Virus record (IMG/VR): IMGVR_UViG_2648501186_000019
Location: 1 to 19,644 of that record
Reading direction: 5' to 3' (one strand)
Source of the DNA: a virus
Lineage: Duplodnaviria; Heunggongvirae; Uroviricota; Caudoviricetes
DNA: 19,644 nucleotides
In this document: piece after piece, positions 1,614 to 19,644 of the stretch
Position numbering within the stretch: the stretch's first letter is position 1
Layout: every line of letters starts with the position of its first letter
The notes under the pieces: generated by a model
Database searches by the model: none
Told to the model about the DNA's origin: nothing
The model's input: only the letters and a program-made list of their open reading frames with translations
Translations under genes and position numbers: made by a program

Positions 1614-1650
1614 GCCCCTATCGTTATAATACACGGTAGGGGCGTTTTTG
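1614..1650 (+). terminator. rho-independent terminator candidate upstream of the recombinase gene
   Basis: Stem GCCCCTATCG pairs with CGGTAGGGGC (one G-U pair) around a 10-nt loop containing TTATAAT, followed by GTTTTTGTTT. Confidence 0.55.
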
Positions 1651-1662
1651 TTTGGAAATGGT

Positions 1663-3342
1663 ATGAAAACTAAACTGTATTCGTATATTCGCTTCTCTTC
1701 AATGAAGCAAGCGGATGGTAGTTCTTATGAACGCCAAAAGAGAACAGCCGCAGAGATAGCCGCAAAATATGACCTTGAACTGGTTACTTCCTATCAGGAT
1801 TTTGGTGTATCTGCATTCAAAGGGGCTAACAGTAGAACAGGTGCATTATCTCGTTTTCTGGATGAAATTGGTCGATCCGTTCCGGTTGGTAGCTGGCTGG
1901 TTGTGGAAAACTTAGACCGTATCTCTCGCCAATCCATCATTGAAGCACAAGAGCTATTTCTCTCGATTATCCGTAGGGGAATAACTATCGTAACTGGCAT
2001 GGATGGTAAGGTCTATAGCAAGGAATCGGTTAATGCCAATCCTATTGATTTGCTGTTGAGTGTCATGTTGTTTGCGAGAGCTAACGAGGAAAGTCAGACT
2101 AAGCGCAATCGTACTAACTCAAGCGCATTGATTAAGATTAAAGCTCATCAAGAAAATCCACAAAATCCGGCTGTTGCAATCGAGGAAATTGGAAAGAATA
2201 TGTGGTGGACTGATACCACATCTGGTTATGTGCTTCCTCATCCGGTCTTCTTCCCTATTGTTCAGGAGGTTGTGGAATTACGCAGGAATGGACGGTCAAC
2301 CGCCGAGATACTGGATCACCTTAACGCGACATACACACCACCACCAGCCGCAAGTCACAAGAGGCATTCAAACTGGTCACGGGCAATGATTGAAAGGTTG
2401 TTCCATACCCGCGCTTTGATTGGTATCAAGGAAATCTCTGTAGATGGCGTTAAGTATGAGTTAAAGGATTATTATCCTCGTGTGCTAGATGACGCTGAGT
2501 TTTATCACCTTAAGAAAAGCATTGGTGTTAGAGCATGTAACTATGGAGACAAGGAAGAAGTTAAACCTATTCCCTTGCTTAGTGGTGTTGGTCTATTGAA
2601 ATGTGAACATTGCGGTTCCGCTATGGTTAAGGTGAAAGGAACTAACAAACGTCCTAACCAATATCGTTATTCATGCGATGCAATGCGCTCTAGTCGTATT
2701 GCATGTGTGCATACAAACTGGAGTTTTCGAGGTGATCAATTAGAGAAAGCTGTATTGCAATTGCTGGCTGATAAAATCTGGATTGCTGAGGATAAGGCTA
2801 ATCCGGTTCCGGCTTTGAAAGTACAGATTGATGAAATATCACGCAAGATTGATAACCTGATTACCCTTTCTGCTATGACAGGAGCAACGAAGGAGTTAGC
2901 CGACCAGATTACTACCCTCAATAGCGAGCGTGAAACACTCTACAATCAGATTAAGATGGCAGAAGAGGAAATGTATTCTGTGGACTCTCAAGGCTGGGAG
3001 AAGCTCGCAGAATTTGATTTAGAAGATGTTTATAACGAGGATCGCATTAAGGTCCGGTTTAAGATTAAGCAAGCTCTAAAACGGATCGGGTGTAGCAGGA
3101 TTGACAAATACAAAAACTTGTTTGTACTGGAATACATTGATGGTAAGACCCAGAGAGTTGTAATAGAAAATTCAAGAGGACCGAGGAAAGGCCGGATCTT
3201 CGTTGATTTGAAGACCATCAATGATAGGCAGATTCTGGAGAGTAACGGGCTTGTTTTGCATCCATGTTTAGACATGCTGACAGATAAGAACTGGAAACCA
3301 GAAGAGGAAATACCAGGTCCATTACAGGAATTTGGAATTTAA
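1663..3342 (+). CDS. large serine recombinase (serine integrase/resolvase family), 559 aa from ATG 1663
   Basis: N-terminal catalytic motif YSYIRFSSMKQ...SYERQ (Y-x-R-x-S nucleophile region), a large central domain, a Cys-rich zinc-ribbon-like segment (CEHCGS...YSCD...IACVH) and a coiled-coil-like stretch. The track start at 1648 is TTG; ATG 1663 is preferred. Confidence 0.9.
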   Translation: MKTKLYSYIRFSSMKQADGSSYERQKRTAAEIAAKYDLELVTSYQDFGVSAFKGANSRTGALSRFLDEIGRSVPVGSWLVVENLDRISRQSIIEAQELFLSIIRRGITIVTGMDGKVYSKESVNANPIDLLLSVMLFARANEESQTKRNRTNSSALIKIKAHQENPQNPAVAIEEIGKNMWWTDTTSGYVLPHPVFFPIVQEVVELRRNGRSTAEILDHLNATYTPPPAASHKRHSNWSRAMIERLFHTRALIGIKEISVDGVKYELKDYYPRVLDDAEFYHLKKSIGVRACNYGDKEEVKPIPLLSGVGLLKCEHCGSAMVKVKGTNKRPNQYRYSCDAMRSSRIACVHTNWSFRGDQLEKAVLQLLADKIWIAEDKANPVPALKVQIDEISRKIDNLITLSAMTGATKELADQITTLNSERETLYNQIKMAEEEMYSVDSQGWEKLAEFDLEDVYNEDRIKVRFKIKQALKRIGCSRIDKYKNLFVLEYIDGKTQRVVIENSRGPRKGRIFVDLKTINDRQILESNGLVLHPCLDMLTDKNWKPEEEIPGPLQEFGI

Positions 3343-3474: not shown

Positions 3475-3618
3475 TTATCAGAGAAAATTGTCTTACTATT
3501 GCATTCTCTATCTGGATGTGGGTATAGGCGGGATTGAATACGGCAAAACTGAAACATTCCACTACTGCAATAAATCACTAAACAATATAAAGAATATTGC
3601 AAGTGTGGAGTGGAACTA

Positions 3619-5109
3619 ATGCAAGATATTAAAATTCATTTTCAAGATTACAGTTTCGTTAAGGTTGATTGCTCTCCTTCTATCGGAATGGAATTAAGAG
3701 ATTATTTCTCGTTTGAGGTTGAAGGGGCTAGGTTTAGCCCCCGTTACAAGTATTCTGGCTGGGATGGACGAATAAGACTGTTTACGCATGAAAACACCCT
3801 ACCAATTGGACTATTAAAAACGTTGGGTGTCTTCGTTAAAAATATGGGCTATTCAGTCTGGATTGACCCCAGATTGCTTGAGAAGGAAGATGTAACCAAA
3901 GACGCGATTAATGAATGGATTGATTCCTTAGAAGTGTATTCCGGTAGCAATAAAATCAATCCTTATTGGTATCAAAGGGAGGCAGTCTTTCAGGGTATCC
4001 ACAATCGCCGTAGAATGCTGGTTCTTCCTACCAGTGCCGGAAAGTCATTGATTGCTTGTATGCTGTCTCGTTGGTACTTAGAGAACTACACCGGAAAAGT
4101 GTTAATCATTGTTCCGACTACATCGCTAGTGGTTCAAATGAGGGATGATTTCATCGATTATAGGCTATTCCCTTATGAAGCAATTCATACAATGATGAGT
4201 GGTAGCGGGAAACATCCGGGAGACAGGTTAATCACGGTTAGTACATGGCAATCAGCGTGCAAGATGCCTCCTGAATGGTTCAAACAATATGGAATGTTGA
4301 TAGTTGATGAATCGCATAAGGCTAGTGCCAAAAATATTACCAATATCATTAACGGAATGAATCATTGCCAATTTAAGATCGGCATGACTGGTTCCCCTAA
4401 AGAATCAAAATGCCATCTTTTACAGTATGTCGGACTTTTCGGTGATATTTCTAAGATCGTGAGTATTGACCGCCTGATGGAAGAAGGGCAGGTGACAAAA
4501 CTGAAAATTAACTGTCTTTTCCTTCGTTATACCGATGAGGAATGTAGCGCGGTTAAGGGGCGAGAATATGCGGAAGAGATCAAGTATATTACATCTAACC
4601 CACGACGAAATAAGTTTGCTTGCAATTTGGCGCTAAAACTCGCTAAGAAGGGCGAAAACGTATTCCTGATGTTCCGCAATACTAAGCACGGAAAACTTAT
4701 GTATGATGCGTTACAGAAGGTACACGACAAGGTTTATTATATTGACGGTGGAGTTAAGACAGAAGAACGAGACGAGTTCAAAAAATTAGCGGAAGGGGAA
4801 ACAGGGATCATTTGCGTTGCATCCTATGGTGTGTTCTCTACTGGTGTTTCCATCAAGAACTTGCATCATGTTATTTTCGGTCATCCAGTGAAGGAATCAA
4901 CTATCGTTCGTCAGAGTATCGGTCGTGCATTGCGTAAACATGGTTCTAAGGATATTGCAACGGTCTGGGATCTTATAGATCATTTGTGTATATTCGGTCG
5001 TAACGGAAAAGTCAAGCATAAAAATTATGCGGTAAAACATGCACTTGAGAGAATCCGCTATTATTTGACCGACAAGTTCAGCTATGCAACTAAAACAATT
5101 GCTATATAA
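3619..5109 (+). CDS. uvsW: SF2 DNA helicase of the T4 UvsW type (497 aa from ATG 3619)
   Basis: Walker A LPTSAGKS, DExH box LIVDESHKA, motif III-like TGSP, C-terminal helicase motifs (VASYGVFSTGVSIKNLHHV, QSIGRALRKHGSK). The N-terminus MQDIKIHFQDYSFVKVDC and overall pattern track the T4 UvsW sequence as I recall it. RBS GGAG 8 nt upstream of ATG 3619; the track start at 3610 is GTG. Confidence 0.85.
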   Translation: MQDIKIHFQDYSFVKVDCSPSIGMELRDYFSFEVEGARFSPRYKYSGWDGRIRLFTHENTLPIGLLKTLGVFVKNMGYSVWIDPRLLEKEDVTKDAINEWIDSLEVYSGSNKINPYWYQREAVFQGIHNRRRMLVLPTSAGKSLIACMLSRWYLENYTGKVLIIVPTTSLVVQMRDDFIDYRLFPYEAIHTMMSGSGKHPGDRLITVSTWQSACKMPPEWFKQYGMLIVDESHKASAKNITNIINGMNHCQFKIGMTGSPKESKCHLLQYVGLFGDISKIVSIDRLMEEGQVTKLKINCLFLRYTDEECSAVKGREYAEEIKYITSNPRRNKFACNLALKLAKKGENVFLMFRNTKHGKLMYDALQKVHDKVYYIDGGVKTEERDEFKKLAEGETGIICVASYGVFSTGVSIKNLHHVIFGHPVKESTIVRQSIGRALRKHGSKDIATVWDLIDHLCIFGRNGKVKHKNYAVKHALERIRYYLTDKFSYATKTIAI

Positions 5110-12589: not shown

Positions 12590-15109
12590 TTACATTCTAC
12601 GACGCTGGGCGTCTTCTACTGCTTGGGCAACAAGTTTCGGATGGCGTTTAATCGCTTCCATTACCATTGCATCAGAGCTATTAACGTTACCGCTAATTTG
12701 CAAAGGAGCATGTACCTCAATCGGCTGAGAGTTACCAGTGTTACCGGATTTCTGGTTAGCTAAGAAGTCTTTCAGATCGCCGTTAGTACGATCATCAACA
12801 ACTCGTTCCCCTTTCTGTAACAGCCATGTACCCTCACGCGGGATGTTATCAATACCGTCATGCGCCATACCGTCAACAGAGATTGATTTCATCTGCGCAA
12901 CACGAGCGATTGCAGAAGCATAGCTAGCAGCACCCATCGCAACACCCAACGGTCCAGGATACTTAGCCATAGCCTTAGTTGCGGCTTCGTGTGCGTTCAT
13001 CATACCCATTGCGATAGAAACGCCTTTCTGTGCTGCAAATAGTCCCTTAGTAACAGCGTTATTCTCTAAGCCAAATGCTTGTAACGCCTCACCAAATCCA
13101 CCGAACATATCCTGTGTATCTTGCAAGCGCATGTTATTGTATTTTAAGTCAATTTCACGCATTTTCTTTTGATGCGCTTCATTGAGTGCTTGCAGTGCTT
13201 TAAATTGTTCAGCTTGAGGCAGTTTATCAATGTTGGCTTTATGGGTAGCGTAATCAGCATTAGCATTATCAACATCAACGGCTTTCATCTCGTCAATAGT
13301 CTGATCACGTTCACCGAAGGAGTTAGCTAGACCACGAGATTTGATTTCTTGTAGTCCATCGGTCGCACCAGTACGGCCTTTGTAAGCATCTTCAATACGC
13401 TGTTTTTCTGCCAGATAATCCGCTAATTTGATGTTTTTATTCTGGTAGTTTTCTTCCAGATCTTTAAGGCTTTGTTCATAAACCTGTTTAGAAGCAGCCA
13501 ACATTTGCAGGGCTTCCATTGGATTTGCACCTAATACAGATTTACGGAAGTTTTCCGCGTTAGCATTAATTAGCTGGCGTCGTTTCTCTTCGTATTGTTC
13601 TTGCGTGATAATACCCTGTTTAAGAGCGTTATCTAACTTAGCAAGGTTTTCGGTAATCTGACGGTTAGAAGACGCCACAGCAGCTTGTGACGAGCTATAC
13701 AAAGAGATATTGATGGCCTTCAAATCATTGTAGGCTTTTTCTCTTAATTTTTTGGCTTCGTCTGCGGCTTTCTTCGCTGCATCTTTAGCTTTCTTGGTTT
13801 CTGGACAATCTGCGGCTGAATGCGCACCTTGCTTACATACAGGGCAAAGAGATTGAACACGGCGTTTATTCTCTTCTTCCTGTTTCTTTTTCAGTTCATC
13901 GGCTTGTGTTTGCAGTTCAGCAGCTTTGCGTTTGCGTTCTTGTTCTGCTAGATCTTCGAAGCTGGTTGCAGCACCGTTACTAACACCGCTTGCGATGGCT
14001 TCCTCTACCGCATCACCTAATGCTTTAGCACCTTTCTTGATGTTATCGGTAGTCAATGCTGGGATTTCAAAATCAAGAAAATCGGCATCAGCACCAAACC
14101 AGCCAGCAATAGTTTTACCACCCTTGCGGATCGCATTCTGTACTTTAGCGATAATCTCGGCTAGTTTGTTGTACAGATTAATCATTGTTTCCTGTACAGT
14201 TTTAACCGTCTTGATTATCGGGTTAATTGCTGTAAGTAGAGCATCCTTAGCTTTCTGGAATAACGGCGGGAGATTTTCGGTCACAAACTTACTAATAGCT
14301 TTCATACTCAAATAGAAAGTAGTATTAGTAAAATCCTTGTTGAAATAATCATAGATTAAGTTGAATCCTTTCGGGAGGAACGAAAATACATCCGCGAAAG
14401 CACCCATTACCGTTTTACCTAAAGCGGTCAAATTAGAACTTGCGTTTGAATACGCGGTCGCTGTTTCTTCTGAGACATAAGCGGCTTGTTGTTGGAGCTT
14501 AACTTGATGTTCCCAATAGTCGTTTGATTCAGACAAAGCACCGATCATCTTACTGGAATCAGAAGCAATTCGTTCCATACCCGCGATAATTTCAGAATGG
14601 CTTAGTCCTGCGGCTTTAGCTTGGTAATACCACATTTCAGCAGCTTTGCGACCGCCTTCTGGATCATCGGTAAAGGCTGCATAATCCTTGATATCGCCTT
14701 TGATCATTTTAAGCGCGGCTTGAAATTCCCCTGTACCGTCTCGCCATGCTTCCCCTAATTTCTCGGCTGCATCCTTGTTAATATCAAGAACTTTTTCGGC
14801 ATTCAGACCAAAGCCACTATAGACTTTTTCCATCTTCTGAATTTGTTCGATATTAACACCAAATTCTTTCGACATATTGGCATATTCGATAGCCATTTTT
14901 GCGCCACCAGCAGCAAGGGCAGTAAGAGCACCCAAAGCAGCACCAGCAGCCATCCCCAATGGACCCAGCTTACCTAACAATCCACTGATAGAGCCAGTTA
15001 AATTACCGACACCACCGGAGGCAAGACCATCAAGAATACCACTTGCTTTATCTGCGGCAGATTCAAGACCACCAGTAACGCCAGTAATATCAAATCTTAA
15101 TTCTGACAT
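12590..15109 (-). CDS. tail tape measure protein (839 aa)
   Basis: Position directly after the chaperone pair; length comparable to lambda gpH; long helical charged repeats and Gly/Ala-rich hydrophobic segments. Strong AAGAGG Shine-Dalgarno sequence before ATG 15109. Confidence 0.85.
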   Translation of the reverse strand: MSELRFDITGVTGGLESAADKASGILDGLASGGVGNLTGSISGLLGKLGPLGMAAGAALGALTALAAGGAKMAIEYANMSKEFGVNIEQIQKMEKVYSGFGLNAEKVLDINKDAAEKLGEAWRDGTGEFQAALKMIKGDIKDYAAFTDDPEGGRKAAEMWYYQAKAAGLSHSEIIAGMERIASDSSKMIGALSESNDYWEHQVKLQQQAAYVSEETATAYSNASSNLTALGKTVMGAFADVFSFLPKGFNLIYDYFNKDFTNTTFYLSMKAISKFVTENLPPLFQKAKDALLTAINPIIKTVKTVQETMINLYNKLAEIIAKVQNAIRKGGKTIAGWFGADADFLDFEIPALTTDNIKKGAKALGDAVEEAIASGVSNGAATSFEDLAEQERKRKAAELQTQADELKKKQEEENKRRVQSLCPVCKQGAHSAADCPETKKAKDAAKKAADEAKKLREKAYNDLKAINISLYSSSQAAVASSNRQITENLAKLDNALKQGIITQEQYEEKRRQLINANAENFRKSVLGANPMEALQMLAASKQVYEQSLKDLEENYQNKNIKLADYLAEKQRIEDAYKGRTGATDGLQEIKSRGLANSFGERDQTIDEMKAVDVDNANADYATHKANIDKLPQAEQFKALQALNEAHQKKMREIDLKYNNMRLQDTQDMFGGFGEALQAFGLENNAVTKGLFAAQKGVSIAMGMMNAHEAATKAMAKYPGPLGVAMGAASYASAIARVAQMKSISVDGMAHDGIDNIPREGTWLLQKGERVVDDRTNGDLKDFLANQKSGNTGNSQPIEVHAPLQISGNVNSSDAMVMEAIKRHPKLVAQAVEDAQRRRM

Positions 15110-15131: not shown

Positions 15132-15163
15132 ATAAAAAAGCCCCACCGATAAAGGCAGGGCTT
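15132..15163 (-). terminator. rho-independent terminator/attenuator between chaperone and tape measure genes; copy 1 of a repeated hairpin
   Basis: On the - strand: AAGCCCTGCC, loop, GGTGGGGCTT (two G-U pairs), then UUUUUU. Near-identical to the element at 16413-16443. Confidence 0.55.
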
Positions 15164-15172
15164 ATAATTCAA

Positions 15173-15557
15173 TTAATCTGCGGTCGCCCTTAACTTATTG
15201 ACTAACGCCGGATCAAACATGCTCAACATTGCAGCTTTGCGATCTTCTTCTTTCTTACGCTCGATTTCTTCCAGTTCTTCTTTAGTCTTGAAGATTTTCT
15301 CTTCTTTGATTAACTGGAATTGGCTAGGTTTAATTTTATTAGCCATTTCTTTAGTCATTCCCTGAGAAGTCATATAAAGGGAATATTGAAGCATAGCGTT
15401 TTGCATGTCATGAAATGCGGGGGATTGTGGTTCTAAGTAAGTGTCGAAAATATGCAGTGACCAAAAAAGTGTCACTGGCATATTATCCATTTCATCTTTA
15501 CTCAATCCACGCCGCATCATCTGGCGGAAGTAGAAAGTTAAGAGCGGGTTTACTTTA
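15173..15557 (-). CDS. frameshift extension of the tail assembly chaperone (GT-like product), -1 frame relative to 15550-15858
   Basis: The -1 frame is open from 15571 through the G stop, and its first ATG (15520) has no Shine-Dalgarno sequence. The 21-nt overlap contains GGTAAAGTAA (15550-15559), where a P-site Lys slip from AAG to AAA is possible at the stop codon. Confidence 0.45.
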
Positions 15558-15858
15558 CCGATTCTTCTACCTTACTCGGTTCCGGCATCATAGAAGCCAG
15601 AGCAACCAGACCGATCAATTGTGCTTTAACAGTTGTGTAAAGGGCTTTAACTTGTTTAATATTAGTGAAAACTGGTTTACCGCTTTCATCTTCGATACAT
15701 TTCAGAATAGTACGTTCGTCGCGGTCTTCTTTATTGTTATTCTGAATGTGCTCGTTAAATTCCTGTACGCTCATCGGACGGGCATAAAATTTAAAGCCGT
15801 TGATTTCCATTGCTTCGCGTTTCGGGGAAAGAGCTTTCATTAAATCGTTGATATTCAT
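15550..15858 (-). CDS. tail assembly chaperone (gpG-like), 102 aa
   Basis: Small acidic protein immediately upstream of the tape measure with an overlapping -1 ORF. GAGGAAA Shine-Dalgarno sequence before ATG 15858. Confidence 0.6.
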   Translation of the reverse strand: MNINDLMKALSPKREAMEINGFKFYARPMSVQEFNEHIQNNNKEDRDERTILKCIEDESGKPVFTNIKQVKALYTTVKAQLIGLVALASMMPEPSKVEESVK

Positions 15859-15880
15859 TTTTGTTTCCTCATTAACAATG

Positions 15881-15897
15881 ATTACGATATATTTATG
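15881..15897 (-). promoter_or_regulatory. CATAAATA box plus TATCGTAAT; second copy of the 15-nt motif seen at 945-959
   Basis: The - strand reads CATAAATATATCGTAATCATT; the box ends 31 nt upstream of ATG 15858 (30 nt at the + strand copy). It overlaps the stop codon of the 168-aa gene. Confidence 0.35.
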
Positions 15898-16399
15898 TGA
15901 TCTTTAAACTCTGCTTAGTGCCAGTCTTCTTAATGTTGGTAAGGAAAGCAGCCGGAGGATTGCTTAACCAATAGTAATGAAAACCACTTTGCATACTGTT
16001 ATAAGGAACAGTGACAGTAGCACCACCCAAATTAACGGTTATATTCCCCGCTCTACCGTTCTGGAGATATACAGCCATAGTAGGAGTACCGCCATTGAAT
16101 TGACCAACGATAACGCCAATCAGACGCCCTACGCCCACGTTTTCGGGGTTCTCCATAGATCCTTTACCGCGCATGTCAGTTACTGGATAGTTTGAAGCAG
16201 TTACACCCCAGTTATTACCCAATGAAGTAGACCACGATGCAGTAGCAACAACCGTATCCATACCACGACCACACATAGCACTCATGTTAGCTGGGCGACT
16301 AACCTTTAATGCGTTCATTGCTGCGGTCATCCATCGTTGACCAGTTACAGAAACAGCAGATGACCCGACCCAGCCGGGCTTATTAACGACATTTGCCAT
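15893..16399 (-). CDS. hypothetical tail-module protein (168 aa), Gly/Ser/Thr/Asn-rich
   Basis: GGAG Shine-Dalgarno sequence 9 nt before ATG 16399, just downstream of the terminator hairpin. Composition suggests a beta-rich structural protein; could alternatively be the tube subunit. Confidence 0.55.
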   Translation of the reverse strand: MANVVNKPGWVGSSAVSVTGQRWMTAAMNALKVSRPANMSAMCGRGMDTVVATASWSTSLGNNWGVTASNYPVTDMRGKGSMENPENVGVGRLIGVIVGQFNGGTPTMAVYLQNGRAGNITVNLGGATVTVPYNSMQSGFHYYWLSNPPAAFLTNIKKTGTKQSLKIT

Positions 16400-16412: not shown

Positions 16413-16443
16413 ATAAAAAAGCCCCACCATTAAGGCAGGGCTT
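16413..16443 (-). terminator. rho-independent terminator after the major tail gene region; copy 2 of the repeated hairpin
   Basis: The + strand reads AAAAAAGCCCCACCATTAAGGCAGGGCTT, against AAAAAAGCCCCACCGATAAAGGCAGGGCTT at 15132-15163. The stem is fully paired only in the - strand RNA (G-U pairs). Confidence 0.55.
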
Positions 16444-16573: not shown

Positions 16574-17050
16574 TCATCCACCAACAGTAAAGATCTTCTG
16601 TGGAACGGGCTTGCCATCAACCGCAAACGTCAGTTCACGCTGTACGACGCTCTCGTCATCACCAGTCAGATTGACTTTAGAAATGAATCCGTTAAATGCA
16701 GTACGAATACCAGTCTGCTTATCCGCTGATACGTAATACTCTACTTTAATCTGGATTCGAGTGCCGTCTTCGGCAGCTTTAATGAGCTTCTCGTGTACCG
16801 CATCACCCGGAATGTAGTTGATCACCAGTTCCAGATCAGGAACGTTCAGTTTACCAACCAGCTTACGGTTATACTGAGAAGAGAACGACTTCACCTCAAC
16901 CGTGCCCCTCTCAATGGAGTAGGAAGGCCAACCAGCACACTCTTTAATTTCTTCGTATGCTTCATCAGCAAGATCGGTGTTAGTGGTATCAGCGTGATAG
17001 AACAGACTTACCAAACCACCAGTAAAAATATCTTTGAATTGTTGAGACAT
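16574..17050 (-). CDS. major tail (tube) protein candidate, 158 aa
   Basis: Strong AAGGGG Shine-Dalgarno sequence; located upstream of the chaperones and tape measure; size and beta-rich sequence typical of small siphovirus tube proteins. Ends in TGA, followed in the same frame by 41 open codons (16451-16573). Confidence 0.55.
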   Translation of the reverse strand: MSQQFKDIFTGGLVSLFYHADTTNTDLADEAYEEIKECAGWPSYSIERGTVEVKSFSSQYNRKLVGKLNVPDLELVINYIPGDAVHEKLIKAAEDGTRIQIKVEYYVSADKQTGIRTAFNGFISKVNLTGDDESVVQRELTFAVDGKPVPQKIFTVGG

Positions 17051-17106: not shown

Positions 17107-19644
17107 TTATTTAGTTGCTTTCAGTTCGGCTAATTCAGCTTTAGTTTCGGCAAGTTCTTTAGCCATAGCATCAAACTTAGCGGTCATTTCCTGCATTGCT
17201 TTGATGATTAAAGCATTGACAGCAGAGTTAGAAATAGTCTTGATTGCTTCTGGATGTTCTGGATCTTCGGTGGATTGAATACCTACTGCTTCCGGCAATA
17301 CTTTTTCCAGATCCTGAGCAATAATACCTACTTCGCGTTTAATTACTGTGTCATCAGAAAGAGATTTAACTTTATCGTAGGTGTAGACTTTCAGGGAGTT
17401 TACTTTCTCTAATGCGCCGTCCTGTAATTCTTCCTTGTTAATTTTCAAACGGGAGTCGGAGCGAATGTAAACATCGTTAAAGCTACCGTTACGACCTGCG
17501 GTAAAGTCACCAGAGGCGTTAAAGTCAAAAGTTGCATCGTGTACGTGCATACGCACCATAGCATTACCGATAGTACCGCTAGGAACATGTACACCCATTG
17601 CTGCGATATGATATTTACCTTGATGGGTTGCTTTCCATACGTTATGAGCGGAATCGGTTGATTGTTGACAGTCGACCTGAATACCAGAAGCACGATCACG
17701 CCAGCTAGCCCAACTACCACCAGCAACGCTACCACGAATAAGACCATTACCGCCACCGGATACAGTGCCCGTTTCAAGGTGAATCATCTTACCGCCGAAT
17801 TTCCAGACTTCGGTTTGTTTCTCACCACGGAAGCGAATAACACCAGCGTCATCGCAATACATCAAGCCCAACTCTAAACCGTTTGGATCTCTAAACCAGA
17901 TGTGCTTATTGCCAGCGCGTTTAAACGAAATATCAGCACCAGTTGTTGTGATATTGCTAGCAACGTTTAGACTACCCGCCATAGAGAACAGAATAGGTCC
18001 AGTGCCACCCTGAGTACGTTCAGTATACCAGTGATAACTTGTAGCATCCTTACATTCAAAAACCTGTTTGCGTTGCTCGTTACCCCATGTGTGTAAGGTA
18101 AATTGAGACTGCGACCCCCGATTAGCATCAAATGCAATTTCACCAGATTCTACACGTACAAAGCCTTTAAAACGTGCAGTAATATTTCCGGTTTCATCAT
18201 TGCGTTCAGTAGAGAAATGTATACCTGTTGGGTCTTCTATTTGAAGAATGTTGTGTCGTCCACTGGCACTATCACCCAAATGGTTTATTTTCATGAAACC
18301 GCTAGCACCCTGACGCCCACTAGAAAAATGAAGAAATCCTTTTTCTACATAAACATCACCAGCAAAACGAGCAGCACGACTTGCACGTTCTAAGACTAAT
18401 GCACCTTCGTTACCATCACCACCCAAAGTAACATTACCGCTACCAAGATGGTAAATGAACGGACGATAGCCGTTCCAACTACCAAATTTATCATTTTCGG
18501 CAGTAGACAGAAGATATACGTTTTGACCATCATTACGCCAGAATGCACCATAGTTACCGTAAATCATACGGAATGCATCACTGTTAGCAGCTACATATTG
18601 ACCATTGGTGTATACAATTTTGGTAGCACCTGTGCTTAAAGATACTTGACCACTTGCTTCTAATTTAACAAAGTTTTTACCTTCGTCACTATACCATTGA
18701 AAATCGTTAGTATCTGTAGAACCAAAACCAAACCAGCCTTGACGTTTATTAGCCCCGTTTCGCTGATCCATATATTCAAAATAGTTACTACGACCAGTAG
18801 GACGCCACATACGAATCGCGTTATTGCCTTGCAGATGAAGTCTATCGACAAATAAACCATCACTACCAACAATTTTTAATACTTCTTTTTGGTCGGTGGA
18901 ACCAGTAGCCAAACGATACACATCACCTTGAACAGTTTCATGCCATATTGTTTCCGCCGCACGACTGCGGAATTTACGCATATATTTTTTATTGTTGTCT
19001 GGTACGTTATTAAGGCTCACAATATCATAGGTTGCTTGTGAGTTATTATCAAACATCAACGTTCCGGCTTTGTTTTCGGTGTTGAACATCGTAATAACAC
19101 GAGCATCGGTAACACCAACAGAAGGTTTAACGAGAGTTAATTCAGGAACATCATGTACTGTCAGAGTAACGCCATCAGTTTTACCGTATTCGACAATAAC
19201 GTTATCGGTGTAACGACCGTAGTTAACGTAGATATCGTAGTTATCACCGGAAGTATTAACCGCAAATACTTGATGAGTATTTTTAGAATTTCGACGATAC
19301 GCCGCAATACTAACGCCTTTCGGGTTATTGTTACCGGAACGGATGACAATTTCTACAAAGTCAACCTGATCATAAGAGTTAACGTTATAACCATTACCAC
19401 CGAAGATACGAAGCATTACCATTCGACCATTCTGTGGGATCGTAGCGGTTGCGATCTTGAAGTATCCACGAGTAGCATCACCAGAAGGAACGGTCATTCT
19501 AACGTTCTTGATGAACATCTTATCAACTTCGGCTTTGGTGTATGCACCAATCTCGCCAGGAGTCGGCTTATCACCTTCGTGATACATCTTATAGCTAAAG
19601 TTCTTCTGTCCTTCTCTATCAAAACCATAGGTTTCAACACGAGA
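17107..19644 (-). CDS. tail or neck fibre protein with a C-terminal intramolecular chaperone (peptidase S74-like) domain; 5'-partial, open to the window edge
   Basis: The frame stays open to 19644 (SRVETYGFDREGQKNFSYK precedes the first Met). The C-terminus (...YIRSDSRLKINKEELQDGALEKVNSLKVYTYDK...VGIIAQDLEKVLPEAV...AELKATK) matches the autoproteolytic chaperone domain of T5 pb1-type L-shaped fibres and endosialidases. The upstream body is Gly/Asn/Thr-rich, beta-type. Confidence 0.85.
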   Translation of the reverse strand, partial: SRVETYGFDREGQKNFSYKMYHEGDKPTPGEIGAYTKAEVDKMFIKNVRMTVPSGDATRGYFKIATATIPQNGRMVMLRIFGGNGYNVNSYDQVDFVEIVIRSGNNNPKGVSIAAYRRNSKNTHQVFAVNTSGDNYDIYVNYGRYTDNVIVEYGKTDGVTLTVHDVPELTLVKPSVGVTDARVITMFNTENKAGTLMFDNNSQATYDIVSLNNVPDNNKKYMRKFRSRAAETIWHETVQGDVYRLATGSTDQKEVLKIVGSDGLFVDRLHLQGNNAIRMWRPTGRSNYFEYMDQRNGANKRQGWFGFGSTDTNDFQWYSDEGKNFVKLEASGQVSLSTGATKIVYTNGQYVAANSDAFRMIYGNYGAFWRNDGQNVYLLSTAENDKFGSWNGYRPFIYHLGSGNVTLGGDGNEGALVLERASRAARFAGDVYVEKGFLHFSSGRQGASGFMKINHLGDSASGRHNILQIEDPTGIHFSTERNDETGNITARFKGFVRVESGEIAFDANRGSQSQFTLHTWGNEQRKQVFECKDATSYHWYTERTQGGTGPILFSMAGSLNVASNITTTGADISFKRAGNKHIWFRDPNGLELGLMYCDDAGVIRFRGEKQTEVWKFGGKMIHLETGTVSGGGNGLIRGSVAGGSWASWRDRASGIQVDCQQSTDSAHNVWKATHQGKYHIAAMGVHVPSGTIGNAMVRMHVHDATFDFNASGDFTAGRNGSFNDVYIRSDSRLKINKEELQDGALEKVNSLKVYTYDKVKSLSDDTVIKREVGIIAQDLEKVLPEAVGIQSTEDPEHPEAIKTISNSAVNALIIKAMQEMTAKFDAMAKELAETKAELAELKATK

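What the first reader, a model, noticed from the sequence alone, without database searches (positions are those of the whole stretch)
15520..15571. Tail assembly chaperone pair with a non-canonical -1 frameshift window at the stop codon
The downstream ORF (115 aa in the track) is in the -1 frame, lacks a Shine-Dalgarno sequence and is open for 17 codons upstream of its first ATG. The two frames overlap by only 21 nt (GGTAGAAGAATCGGTAAAGTAA). No canonical XXXYYYZ heptamer is present, but GUA-AAG-UAA permits a P-site tRNA-Lys slip from AAG to AAA while the stop codon occupies the A site. This would be a less common frameshift mechanism for G/GT-type chaperones.
Basis: partly seen in the sequence, partly recalled or inferred. 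Interest (0 to 1): 0.45.

Follow-up and report, generated by a model that had tools for sequence, protein, structure and literature searches.

The report
Tail chaperone frameshift at GUA-AAG-stop
An E. coli prophage most likely makes its two tail-assembly chaperones (short G, long G-T fusion) by a -1 ribosomal slip on a minimal A_AAG motif at the last codon of the short gene; this is a known trick in a slightly unusual, unannotated form.

Summary
It lies on the minus strand. A 102-aa tail-assembly-chaperone ORF (15858..15550) ends GUA-AAG-UAA. A T-like ORF follows in the -1 frame. It has no Shine-Dalgarno sequence and is open for 17 codons before its first ATG. The two frames overlap by 22 nt, and A_AAG is the only in-frame slip-prone motif there.

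Relatives support a -1 frameshift at this site.
- About 50 relatives in E. coli prophages and gut metagenomes keep G_GUA_AAG followed directly by a stop (UAA, UAG or UGA).
- Every more distant lineage examined, apart from two anomalous contigs, keeps an in-frame A_AAG at the same lysine column.
- Some distant lineages have canonical heptamers there (A_AAA_AAG, U_UUA_AAG).
- The 11 codons between the stop and the ATG evolve as coding sequence in the -1 frame.
- In-frame A_AAG is otherwise avoided in this phage's genes.

The site is therefore a reduced form of a canonical slippery heptamer. It belongs to the known A_AAG tetramer / NNA_AAG hexamer class.

Three lineages have the same GUA_AAG followed by sense codons. 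I found no stimulatory RNA structure and no conserved SD-like element.

This is a new member of a known kind, of modest interest.

The parts
15550..15858 (-). G-like tail assembly chaperone ORF, 102 aa including the stop UAA at 15552..15550
   Evidence: Searches list the ORF. phrog_344 'tail assembly chaperone' matches at E = 6.6e-8. PF16459 Phage_TAC_13 matches at E = 1.5e-5, below the curated cut-off. 12 of 18 family members hit PF16459, best E = 3.9e-7.
15866..15870 (-). Shine-Dalgarno sequence (GAGGA) of the G ORF, 7 nt before its ATG
   Evidence: Read directly from the sequence. The T ATG has nothing comparable.
15553..15559 (-). Proposed shift site G_GUA_AAG. The essential tetramer A_AAG is 15556..15553. 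tRNA-Lys re-pairs from AAG to AAA.
   Evidence: It is the only in-frame Z_ZZN motif in the 22-nt overlap. It is invariant in about 50 relatives. A_AAG is kept at the homologous lysine column in every family lineage examined except two anomalous contigs, L066 and L067.
15550..15552 (-). Frame-0 stop codon directly 3' of the slip codon
   Evidence: A stop is kept at this position as UAA, as UAG (L014, with a 3-nt insertion) or as UGA (L048). L068, L034/L054-57, L064 and L065 also have a stop directly after AAG.
15572..15574 (-). Last stop codon (TAA) of the -1 frame. It sets the 5' limit of where a productive -1 shift can occur.
   Evidence: In most relatives this limit lies even closer, leaving an overlap of only 16 nt.
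15521..15571 (-). 17 codons of the -1 frame open upstream of the first ATG. The 11 codons after the G stop (VNPLLTFYFRQ) evolve as coding sequence.
   Evidence: One search covers 14 codons in the -1 frame: these 11 plus the next three (MMR). 13 sites vary, 9 of them at third codon positions of the -1 frame, and the protein is invariant except at one residue. The homologous motif (N-P/W-x-x-x-F-x-Y/F-R) is present in distant relatives that have no start codon there.
15173..15520 (-). T-like ORF as gene callers see it (115 aa from the first ATG). In the predicted fusion, T-frame codons run from 15553 to 15176 (126 aa), giving a GT product of 228 aa.
   Evidence: Searches list the ORF. PF06223 Phage_tail_T matches at E = 0.001, below the cut-off. 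7 of 15 family members match it, best E = 1.3e-5. Gene callers choose starts giving 77, 110 or 115 aa in identical contexts.
12590..15109 (-). Tape measure protein gene (839 aa) immediately downstream
   Evidence: phrog_13674 at E = 5.3e-48 and phrog_2854 at E = 4.4e-39.
16574..17050 (-). Major tail (tube) protein gene upstream
   Evidence: phrog_158 at E = 4.2e-19. Weak matches to Pfam Phage_TTP_11 and Phage_TTP_12.

Best explanation
Two tail assembly chaperones are made from one mRNA of an E. coli siphovirus-type prophage. Most ribosomes translate the 102-aa G protein and terminate at UAA (15552..15550). A small fraction slip back one nucleotide at GUA_AAG: the single E. coli tRNA-Lys (anticodon mnm5s2UUU) leaves AAG and re-pairs with the overlapping AAA. 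Those ribosomes read on in the -1 frame (...EESVK-VNPLLTFYFRQMMRRGL...) and make a 228-aa G-T fusion. By analogy with lambda gpG/gpGT, the G part binds the tape measure protein and the T part recruits the tube protein.

The site is a reduced form of the canonical heptamers that more distant family members carry at the same codon (A_AAA_AAG, U_UUA_AAG). Only the A_AAG tetramer is kept. The codon before it (GUA) is read by a wobble-prone tRNA-Val (cmo5UAC). This is the NNA_AAG 'hexanucleotide' type of -1 frameshifting.

My committed view of the mechanism: one-tRNA slippage of tRNA-Lys is the basic event across the family. In this clade the directly adjacent stop codon probably gives a second opportunity, with peptidyl-tRNA-Lys slipping in the P site during the wait for a release factor.

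Shown: the anatomy, the conservation, and coding-type evolution of the -1 extension. Inferred: that the slip occurs, how efficient it is, and the relative share of A-site and P-site slippage.
For: (1) Gene context and family. G lies upstream of T, which lies upstream of the tape measure gene. G hits TAC families and T hits Phage_tail_T.

(2) T is in the -1 frame, has no SD, and has no start codon in its 17-codon upstream extension.

(3) The 11 codons between the G stop and the ATG are under purifying selection in the -1 frame. In the 14 codons analysed (these 11 plus MMR), 9 of 13 variable sites are at third positions and only one amino acid varies.

(4) In DCP80, L060, L069 and L070 the homologous conserved T segment (DWVKRFRYR, NWAKQFRYR and similar) lies upstream of any ATG/GTG/TTG start codon. 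There it overlaps a poorly conserved G tail.

(5) A_AAG is the only in-frame Z_ZZN motif in the overlap. It is invariant at the same alignment column in every informative lineage.
- G_GUA_AAG + stop: about 50 loci
- A_GUA_AAG: L060, L068, L069, L070
- G/A_GAA_AAG: L034, L054-59, L061, L071
- U_UUA_AAG: DCP80
- A_AAA_AAG: L062-65

(6) In-frame A_AAG is avoided elsewhere in the phage's genes: 15 observed against 33.7 +/- 4.8 expected.

(7) The host is E. coli. In E. coli, A_AAG is by far the most shift-prone tetramer (Sharma 2014, PMC4066793). NNA_AAG slippage is helped when the 5' codon is read by a wobble-prone tRNA (PMC5009743; PMC10861913).

(8) One-tRNA P-site slippage with a vacant A site needs no downstream structure (PMC6771820).
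Against: - There is no protein evidence.
- Bare Z_ZZN tetramers gave only about 0.15% frameshifting against 0.11% background in E. coli without a stimulator (PMC4066793).
- I found no stimulator. Downstream folding energies are no better than those of shuffles. The SD-like UAAGG 10 nt upstream of the heptamer in the window is not conserved in relatives.
- A Met at the M(M)RRGL position is common in the family. In L060, L069 and L070 the G stop overlaps that ATG (TAATG / ATGATG), so T could also, or instead, be started there by translational coupling.
- No natural in-frame G-T fusion was found among 19 T-family clusters.
Confidence: 0.75

Rival explanations
1. The ribosome pauses with peptidyl-tRNA-Lys on AAG in the P site and the stop codon in the A site. 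The tRNA slips to AAA before the release factor acts. The G:GT ratio is then set by competition between termination and slippage, a -1 counterpart of the prfB +1 site.
For: - A stop directly follows AAG in every member of the window clade, and it survives as UAA, UAG or UGA.
- The same adjacency is seen in L068, L034/L054-57, L064 and L065. Four further lineages have the stop one codon later.
- One-tRNA P-site slippage with an empty A site is documented for dnaX and HIV-1 and needs no mRNA structure (PMC6771820). That would fit the absence of any stimulator here.
- A nearby 3' stop is needed for PEMV -1 frameshifting (PMC5009743).
Against: - L060, L069 and L070 have the identical A_GUA_AAG followed by GAA, GCA or CAA, with the stop 11 codons later. 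DCP80, L062 and L063 also lack a nearby stop.
- The stop context (fourth base) is not conserved: UAA-A, UGA-A, UAG-U, UAA-U and UAA-G all occur.
- The lineages with an adjacent stop are related, so adjacency may be inherited rather than selected.
- The review states that a slow A site matters more for +1 than for -1 frameshifting (PMC5009743).
Confidence: 0.3
2. There is no frameshift. T is made on its own from AUG 15520 (or the AUG 45 nt further on that PGAP uses), either by weak independent initiation or by re-initiation of ribosomes that have just terminated at the G stop 27 nt upstream.
For: - A Met at the M(M)RRGL position is frequent in the family.
- In L060, L069 and L070 the G stop overlaps this ATG in a classic coupling arrangement.
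- All public annotations treat G and T as separate genes.
Against: - There is no SD before the ATG.
- Gene callers disagree on the start, giving 77, 110 or 115 aa.
- The 11 codons upstream of the ATG show third-position variation and a near-invariant peptide in the -1 frame.
- The homologous upstream segment is conserved in relatives that have no Met there: DCP80 has LILRGL and P0016 has VLAKRGH.
- A_AAG is conserved at one column although it is avoided elsewhere.
Confidence: 0.12
3. The frame change comes from transcriptional slippage, a sequencing error or a decaying prophage gene, not from the ribosome.
For: Homopolymer-associated frame oddities do exist in two distant contigs. L066 has an A10 run with T in +1. 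L067 has A_AAA_AAA_UAA plus a further frame break.
Against: - The window has only AAA at the site, too short for polymerase slippage.
- The identical arrangement is found in more than 50 independent assemblies, including complete E. coli chromosomes.
- Both ORFs are intact and under purifying selection.
Confidence: 0.02

Closest known systems
Phage lambda gpG/gpGT and the conserved tail-assembly-chaperone frameshift of dsDNA tailed phages (Levin 1993 and Xu, Hendrix & Duda 2004, as cited in PMC5009743)
   Same: - Two overlapping ORFs lie just upstream of the tape measure gene.
- The second ORF is in the -1 frame with no start signals of its own.
- The shift occurs near the 3' end of G.
- The A-site codon is AAG (lambda: G_GGA_AAG; here: G_GUA_AAG, one base different).
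- No strong stimulator is evident.
- G matches a TAC Pfam family and T weakly matches lambda Phage_tail_T.
   Different: - The P-site codon GUA cannot re-pair properly in the -1 frame (GGU), so the heptamer is not canonical.
- The zero-frame stop is directly adjacent to the slip codon.
- A Gp38-like adhesin gene sits between the tube gene and G.
- Sequence similarity to lambda G/T is remote; the Pfam scores are below the curated cut-offs for the window protein.
A_AAG tetramer / NNA_AAG hexanucleotide -1 frameshifting: IS1222 (G_CGA_AAG), B. subtilis cdd (A_CGA_AAG), and IS3-family elements with tetramer motifs (Licznar 2003 via PMC5009743; Sharma 2014, PMC4066793)
   Same: - Slippage of the single tRNA-Lys from AAG to AAA.
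- The 5' codon ends in A and is read by a wobble-prone tRNA.
- The host is E. coli, where A_AAG ranks first among tetramers.
   Different: - Those cases rely on a stimulator: a pseudoknot or hairpin in IS elements, and, from my own recollection (not checked here), an upstream SD-like sequence in cdd. No conserved stimulator was found here.
- The 5' codon is GUA, not CGA.
- The gene product is a phage chaperone, not a transposase.
'Hungry' one-tRNA P-site slippage described for dnaX and HIV-1 gag-pol (PMC6771820), and stop-dependent -1 frameshifting of pea enation mosaic virus (PMC5009743)
   Same: A slow or vacant A site directly or closely 3' of a slip-prone codon. No need for downstream structure.
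   Different: In dnaX the vacant A site results from tRNA shortage, not from a stop codon. The dependence on the stop is untested here, and relatives with sense codons after GUA_AAG argue that it is not required across the family.
Escherichia phage DCP80 (PQ671644), the nearest cultured relative, with about 35% amino-acid identity over G-T and the tape measure protein
   Same: Homologous G, T (in the -1 frame) and tape measure genes in the same order. The slip lysine lies in the same alignment column.
   Different: It carries a canonical U_UUA_AAG heptamer, with the G stop 10 codons later. The genome is 141 kb. Both ORFs are annotated as hypothetical proteins.

Membership tests
G/GT-type tail assembly chaperone pair with programmed -1 frameshift | Two ORFs between the major tail (tube) gene and the tape measure gene, with the second immediately upstream of the tape measure gene | tested here: met
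   The order on the minus strand is tube 16574..17050, G 15550..15858, T 15173..15571, tape measure 12590..15109. One extra gene (Gp38-like, 15893..16399) lies between the tube gene and G.
G/GT-type tail assembly chaperone pair with programmed -1 frameshift | The second ORF is in the -1 frame, overlaps the end of the first, and lacks its own ribosome-binding site or start | tested here: met
   The frame offset was computed from the coordinates. The overlap is 22 nt. There is no SD and no ATG/GTG/TTG in the 17-codon extension.
G/GT-type tail assembly chaperone pair with programmed -1 frameshift | Sequence membership of G in a TAC family | tested here: met
   phrog_344 matches at E = 6.6e-8. PF16459 matches at 25.7 bits against a cut-off of 28.8 for the window protein. 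12 of 18 family members match it, best E = 3.9e-7.
G/GT-type tail assembly chaperone pair with programmed -1 frameshift | Sequence membership of the second part in a T-domain family | tested here: inconclusive
   PF06223 Phage_tail_T matches at E = 0.001 and 19.9 bits, against a cut-off of 25.9. 7 of 15 family members match at E <= 0.01, best E = 1.3e-5. There is no PHROG hit.
G/GT-type tail assembly chaperone pair with programmed -1 frameshift | The slip site is conserved at a homologous position among relatives, and the -1 extension evolves as coding sequence | tested here: met
G/GT-type tail assembly chaperone pair with programmed -1 frameshift | TAC fold of G | tested here: inconclusive
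   A single-sequence AlphaFold model had mean pLDDT 51.6, too poor for a fold search. A profile search of the PDB gave only E = 0.24 to 3fgx.
G/GT-type tail assembly chaperone pair with programmed -1 frameshift | A fusion protein GT is produced at a low ratio to G and is needed for tail assembly | not testable with these tools
   This needs protein analysis and genetics.
Canonical X_XXY_YYZ tandem-slippage site | A heptamer that lets both the P-site and A-site tRNAs re-pair in the -1 frame | tested here: not met
   The window has G_GUA_AAG. GUA shifted to GGU leaves a middle-position mismatch. Distant relatives do meet the criterion: A_AAA_AAG in L062-65 and U_UUA_AAG in DCP80.
A_AAG tetramer / NNA_AAG hexanucleotide single-tRNA -1 frameshift site | An in-frame A_AAG inside the window in which a -1 shift is productive | tested here: met
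   It is the only Z_ZZN motif in the 22-nt overlap.
A_AAG tetramer / NNA_AAG hexanucleotide single-tRNA -1 frameshift site | A host whose only tRNA-Lys (anticodon UUU, modified) reads both AAA and AAG | tested here: met
   The host is E. coli: the window region is 96-99% identical to two E. coli chromosomes, and the family is present in 58 of 5426 complete genomes. The tRNA fact is established knowledge (PMC5009743).
A_AAG tetramer / NNA_AAG hexanucleotide single-tRNA -1 frameshift site | The 5' codon is read by a wobble-prone tRNA | not tested
   GUA is read by tRNA-Val (cmo5UAC) in E. coli; this rests on my own knowledge. The measured value for GUA_AAG in Licznar 2003 could not be retrieved.
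A_AAG tetramer / NNA_AAG hexanucleotide single-tRNA -1 frameshift site | A flanking stimulator (downstream hairpin or pseudoknot, or an upstream SD-like sequence) | tested here: not met
   Downstream 70-nt folds fall within the shuffle range in all lineages. SD-like matches upstream are weak and not conserved.
Stop-codon-paused P-site (-1) slippage | A stop codon directly 3' of the slip codon, conserved | tested here: met
   The window clade has UAA, UAG or UGA there. L068, L034, L064 and L065 also have an adjacent stop.
Stop-codon-paused P-site (-1) slippage | Frameshifting depends on the stop codon or on release-factor activity | not testable with these tools
   Comparative hint against it: L060, L069 and L070 have GUA_AAG followed by a sense codon.

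The most novel reading that the evidence does not exclude
In this chaperone family the zero-frame stop placed directly after A_AAG is itself the frameshift stimulator. The G:GT ratio would then be set by kinetic competition between release-factor action and -1 slippage of peptidyl-tRNA-Lys. That would be a termination-coupled -1 recoding signal needing no RNA structure, the mirror image of the prfB +1 site. It would have let canonical heptamers (A_AAA_AAG_UAA in L064/L065) decay to bare GUA_AAG_UAA without loss of function.
Probability: 0.25. Interest if true: 0.55.

Novelty: new member of a known kind. Interest (0 to 1): 0.3.

Why it matters
Practical value: this chaperone pair is annotated in every public record I saw as two unrelated 'hypothetical proteins' (once as 'cytochrome'), with an arbitrary start for T. 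That includes 58 complete E. coli genomes and phage DCP80. Tools that look only for X_XXY_YYZ heptamers will miss the site.

Scientific value: the family gives a natural series at one homologous codon. It runs from canonical A_AAA_AAG and U_UUA_AAG through G_GAA_AAG to GUA_AAG, with and without an adjacent stop. Two questions could be tested on it in E. coli itself: how little sequence suffices for a biologically useful low-level -1 frameshift, and whether an adjacent stop codon can replace an RNA stimulator.

It does not change the picture of how tail chaperones work.

Tried and rejected
- **Near-identity search of phage genomes:** no match. The window is an uncultured or unnamed E. coli prophage. 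The nearest cultured relative is DCP80, at about 35% amino-acid identity.
- **The search for homologous proteins with the fused 228-aa query:** nothing returned, so this route gave no evidence for natural in-frame G-T fusions. The exhaustive search with the T frame found 19 clusters, none fused.
- **Genome-contig scan:** one locus only, a MAG labelled Sphingobacterium. Representative genomes rarely carry this prophage.
- **Downstream stimulatory RNA:** MFE folds of 70 nt after the site are within the shuffle range in all lineages. A local CCGC/GCGG hairpin 25 nt downstream in the window is too far away and is not conserved. Rejected.
- **Upstream SD-like stimulator:** UAAGG lies 10 nt before the heptamer in the window (duplex -4.6 kcal/mol). 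Relatives have different sequence there (the script stopped early on one locus). Rejected as a conserved element.
- **Other slip sites in the overlap:** none in the window. T_GAA_AAC in the 85%-identity clade is absent from the window and from L068, and A_AAC is a poor motif in E. coli. Rejected.
- **Transcriptional slippage:** only three A's at the site. Rejected.
- **Licznar et al. 2003 (values for NNA_AAG):** not held in the library.
- **Literature search for GGUAAAG / GUA_AAG as a frameshift site:** only primers and unrelated hits.
Full report
**What is in the sequence**

The finding lies on the minus strand. A 102-aa ORF runs from 15858 to 15550. It has a good SD (GAGGA, 15870..15866) and ends ...GAA GAA UCG GUA AAG UAA.

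A second ORF is in the -1 frame. Its first ATG is at 15520 and its stop at 15173 (115 aa). That frame is open from 15571, directly after a -1-frame TAA at 15574..15572. This gives 17 codons (GRRIGKVNPLLTFYFRQ) with no ATG, GTG or TTG, and there is no SD before the ATG.

The overlap is GGTAGAAGAATCGGTAAAGTAA.

**Context**

The window is a siphovirus-type prophage. The gene order on the minus strand is:
- a long tail fibre gene
- the tube protein gene (16574..17050; phrog_158)
- a Gp38-like adhesin gene (15893..16399)
- the two ORFs in question
- the tape measure gene (12590..15109; phrog_13674, E = 5e-48)
- the distal tail protein gene and a J-like tip gene

A serine integrase, a helicase and an endolysin lie on the other side.

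The 102-aa protein hits phrog_344 'tail assembly chaperone' (E = 6.6e-8) and Pfam Phage_TAC_13 (E = 1.5e-5, just below the cut-off). The -1 ORF weakly hits lambda Phage_tail_T (E = 0.001). Across the family, 12 of 18 G proteins hit Phage_TAC_13 and 7 of 15 T proteins hit Phage_tail_T.

The host is E. coli. The region is 96-99% identical to two complete E. coli chromosomes. Diverged copies (about 75% nt identity) occur in 58 of 5426 complete genomes, always chromosomal. Nowhere is a frameshift annotated. PGAP and other gene callers give T starts of 77, 110 or 115 aa in the same sequence context.

**Is the site more than chance?**

Inside the overlap the only in-frame Z_ZZN motif is A_AAG, within G_GUA_AAG_UAA. 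In 13 ORFs of the window, in-frame A_AAG occurs at 15 of 5276 codon pairs. The chance of at least one in a six-codon window is about 1.7%. The motif is also avoided: synonymous-codon shuffles give 33.7 +/- 4.8, and none of 1000 shuffles was as low as 15.

**Comparative evidence**

I collected loci from IMG/VR (32), metagenomes (19), one MAG, DCP80 and the contigs of ten T-family cluster representatives.

All members of the window's own clade (62-99% amino-acid identity, about 50 loci) carry G_GUA_AAG followed immediately by a stop. In most of them the productive window is only 16 nt (A AAC GAG GUA AAG UAA). The stop is UAA in nearly all, UAG in L014 (with a 3-nt insertion) and UGA in L048.

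Every more distant lineage, apart from the two anomalous contigs L066 and L067, has an in-frame A_AAG at the same lysine column of the alignment:

| Site | Lineages | Distance to the G stop |
|---|---|---|
| A_GUA_AAG_UAA | L068 | adjacent |
| A_GUA_AAG + sense codon | L060, L069, L070 | 11 codons later |
| G_GAA_AAG_UAA | L034, L054-57 | adjacent |
| G/A_GAA_AAG_NNN_stop | L058, L059, L061, L071 | one codon later |
| U_UUA_AAG (canonical) | DCP80 | 10 codons later |
| A_AAA_AAG (canonical) | L062, L063 | 6 codons later |
| A_AAA_AAG_UAA (canonical) | L064, L065 | adjacent |

The window's site therefore looks like a reduced form of a canonical heptamer in which only the A-site part, A_AAG, is kept.

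**Evidence that the -1 extension is translated**

I analysed 14 codons in the -1 frame: the 11 codons between the G stop and the first ATG, plus the next three (MMR). Nine sequence variants in the clade differ at 13 nucleotide sites. Nine of those sites are third codon positions in the -1 frame, and the peptide VNPLL[T/N/C]FYFRQ changes at a single residue.

The same motif (N-P/W-x-x-K/L-x-F-x-Y/F-R) is found in distant relatives. In DCP80, L060, L069 and L070 it lies upstream of any start codon. There it overlaps a low-complexity, poorly conserved tail of the G frame. This pattern is what a fusion read from G predicts. It is not what an independently initiated T predicts.

**Mechanism**

E. 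coli has one tRNA-Lys for AAA and AAG. A_AAG is by far the most shift-prone tetramer in E. coli (Sharma 2014, PMC4066793).

Single-tRNA slippage on NNA_AAG hexamers is documented for IS1222 and B. subtilis cdd. It is favoured when the 5' codon is read by a wobble-prone tRNA (PMC5009743; PMC10861913). From my own knowledge, GUA is read by tRNA-Val with cmo5U34, which is such a tRNA.

A second documented route is slippage of the P-site tRNA alone when the A site stays empty. This route needs no mRNA structure (PMC6771820). A stop codon directly after AAG would create that situation.

Both routes give the same protein (...EESVK-VNPLL...), so they cannot be separated by the junction peptide. Relatives with GUA_AAG followed by sense codons show that the stop is not required across the family.

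I found no stimulatory structure and no conserved SD-like element. Bare tetramers gave only about 0.15% shifting in a reporter. Efficiency is therefore expected to be low, unless the stop or the GUA context raises it. That is the main weakness of the explanation and the main open question.

**Rivals**

- *Independent or re-initiated translation of T from the ATG.* This cannot be excluded as an additional route. The Met is common in the family, and in three lineages the G stop overlaps it. It does not explain the coding-type conservation upstream of the ATG or the conserved A_AAG.
- *Transcriptional slippage, sequencing error or gene decay.* These are excluded by the short A run and by the identical arrangement in dozens of independent assemblies.

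**Comparison and verdict**

This is a lambda-type G/GT chaperone pair. Its slip site fails the canonical-heptamer test and fits the known A_AAG / NNA_AAG class. It differs from lambda's G_GGA_AAG by one base.

The specific P-site/stop mechanism remains one of two live options.

It is a new, unannotated member of a known kind. Interest is modest. It would rise if the adjacent stop proved to be the stimulator.

Noticed in passing
window 15893..16399 (-) and 17107..19587 (-): A T4 Gp38-like adhesin gene (PF21721, E = 2e-15; phrog_1121, E = 5e-34) sits between the tube gene and the G chaperone gene. A long fibre gene (Gp34_trimer + Peptidase_S74 in relatives, about 1170-1195 aa) lies upstream of the tube gene. 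A fibre/adhesin module inside the tail-shaft gene block of a siphovirus-type prophage is unusual. L065 also has a GP38 gene nearby.
   Followed up: partly
window 16443..16419 (-) and 15163..15138 (-): Two nearly identical terminator-like hairpins (AAGCCCTGCC...GGTGGGGCTT followed by a T run) flank the adhesin-G-T block. One follows the tube gene and one lies between T and the tape measure gene. They could be partial terminators that set the tube: chaperone: tape-measure expression ratios, or a small repeated element.
   Followed up: partly
L060, L069, L070 (G/T junctions): In these relatives the G ORF runs 11 codons past GUA_AAG. Its stop overlaps the conserved ATG of M(M)RRGL as TAATG or ATGATG, a classic translational-coupling layout. 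T may therefore also be made alone there.
   Followed up: no
L066 (about 600-650) and L067 (about 1470-1500): Two distant relatives break the pattern. L066 has an A10 run (GAAAAAAAAAATAAG) with T in the +1 frame. L067 has A_AAA_AAA_UAA, and the conserved T motif is split between the -1 and 0 frames. These could be homopolymer assembly errors or genuinely different recoding. Both are short or low-coverage metagenome contigs.
   Followed up: no
window, 13 ORFs: In-frame A_AAG is 2.2-fold depleted relative to synonymous-codon shuffles: 15 observed against 33.7 +/- 4.8. This suggests selection against accidental -1 slippage throughout this E. coli prophage.
   Followed up: yes
L041, L042 and hits H29-H40 (E. 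coli RefSeq records): PGAP names the G chaperone 'hypothetical protein' or, in several genomes, 'cytochrome'. It starts T at an internal ATG (110 aa). No ribosomal-slippage CDS is annotated in any of the 58 genomes.
   Followed up: yes
L001 (Escherichia phage DCP80, PQ671644): The record's taxonomy line is Straboviridae; Tevenvirinae; Gaprivervirus. Yet the 141-kb genome carries a siphovirus-style tube, G/T and tape measure module homologous to this prophage. All of these genes are annotated as hypothetical.
   Followed up: no
window 1648..3342 (+): A large serine recombinase (phrog_95 'integrase', E = 9e-57) serves as the likely integrase of this prophage. It lies next to a helicase gene (3610..5109).
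   Followed up: no
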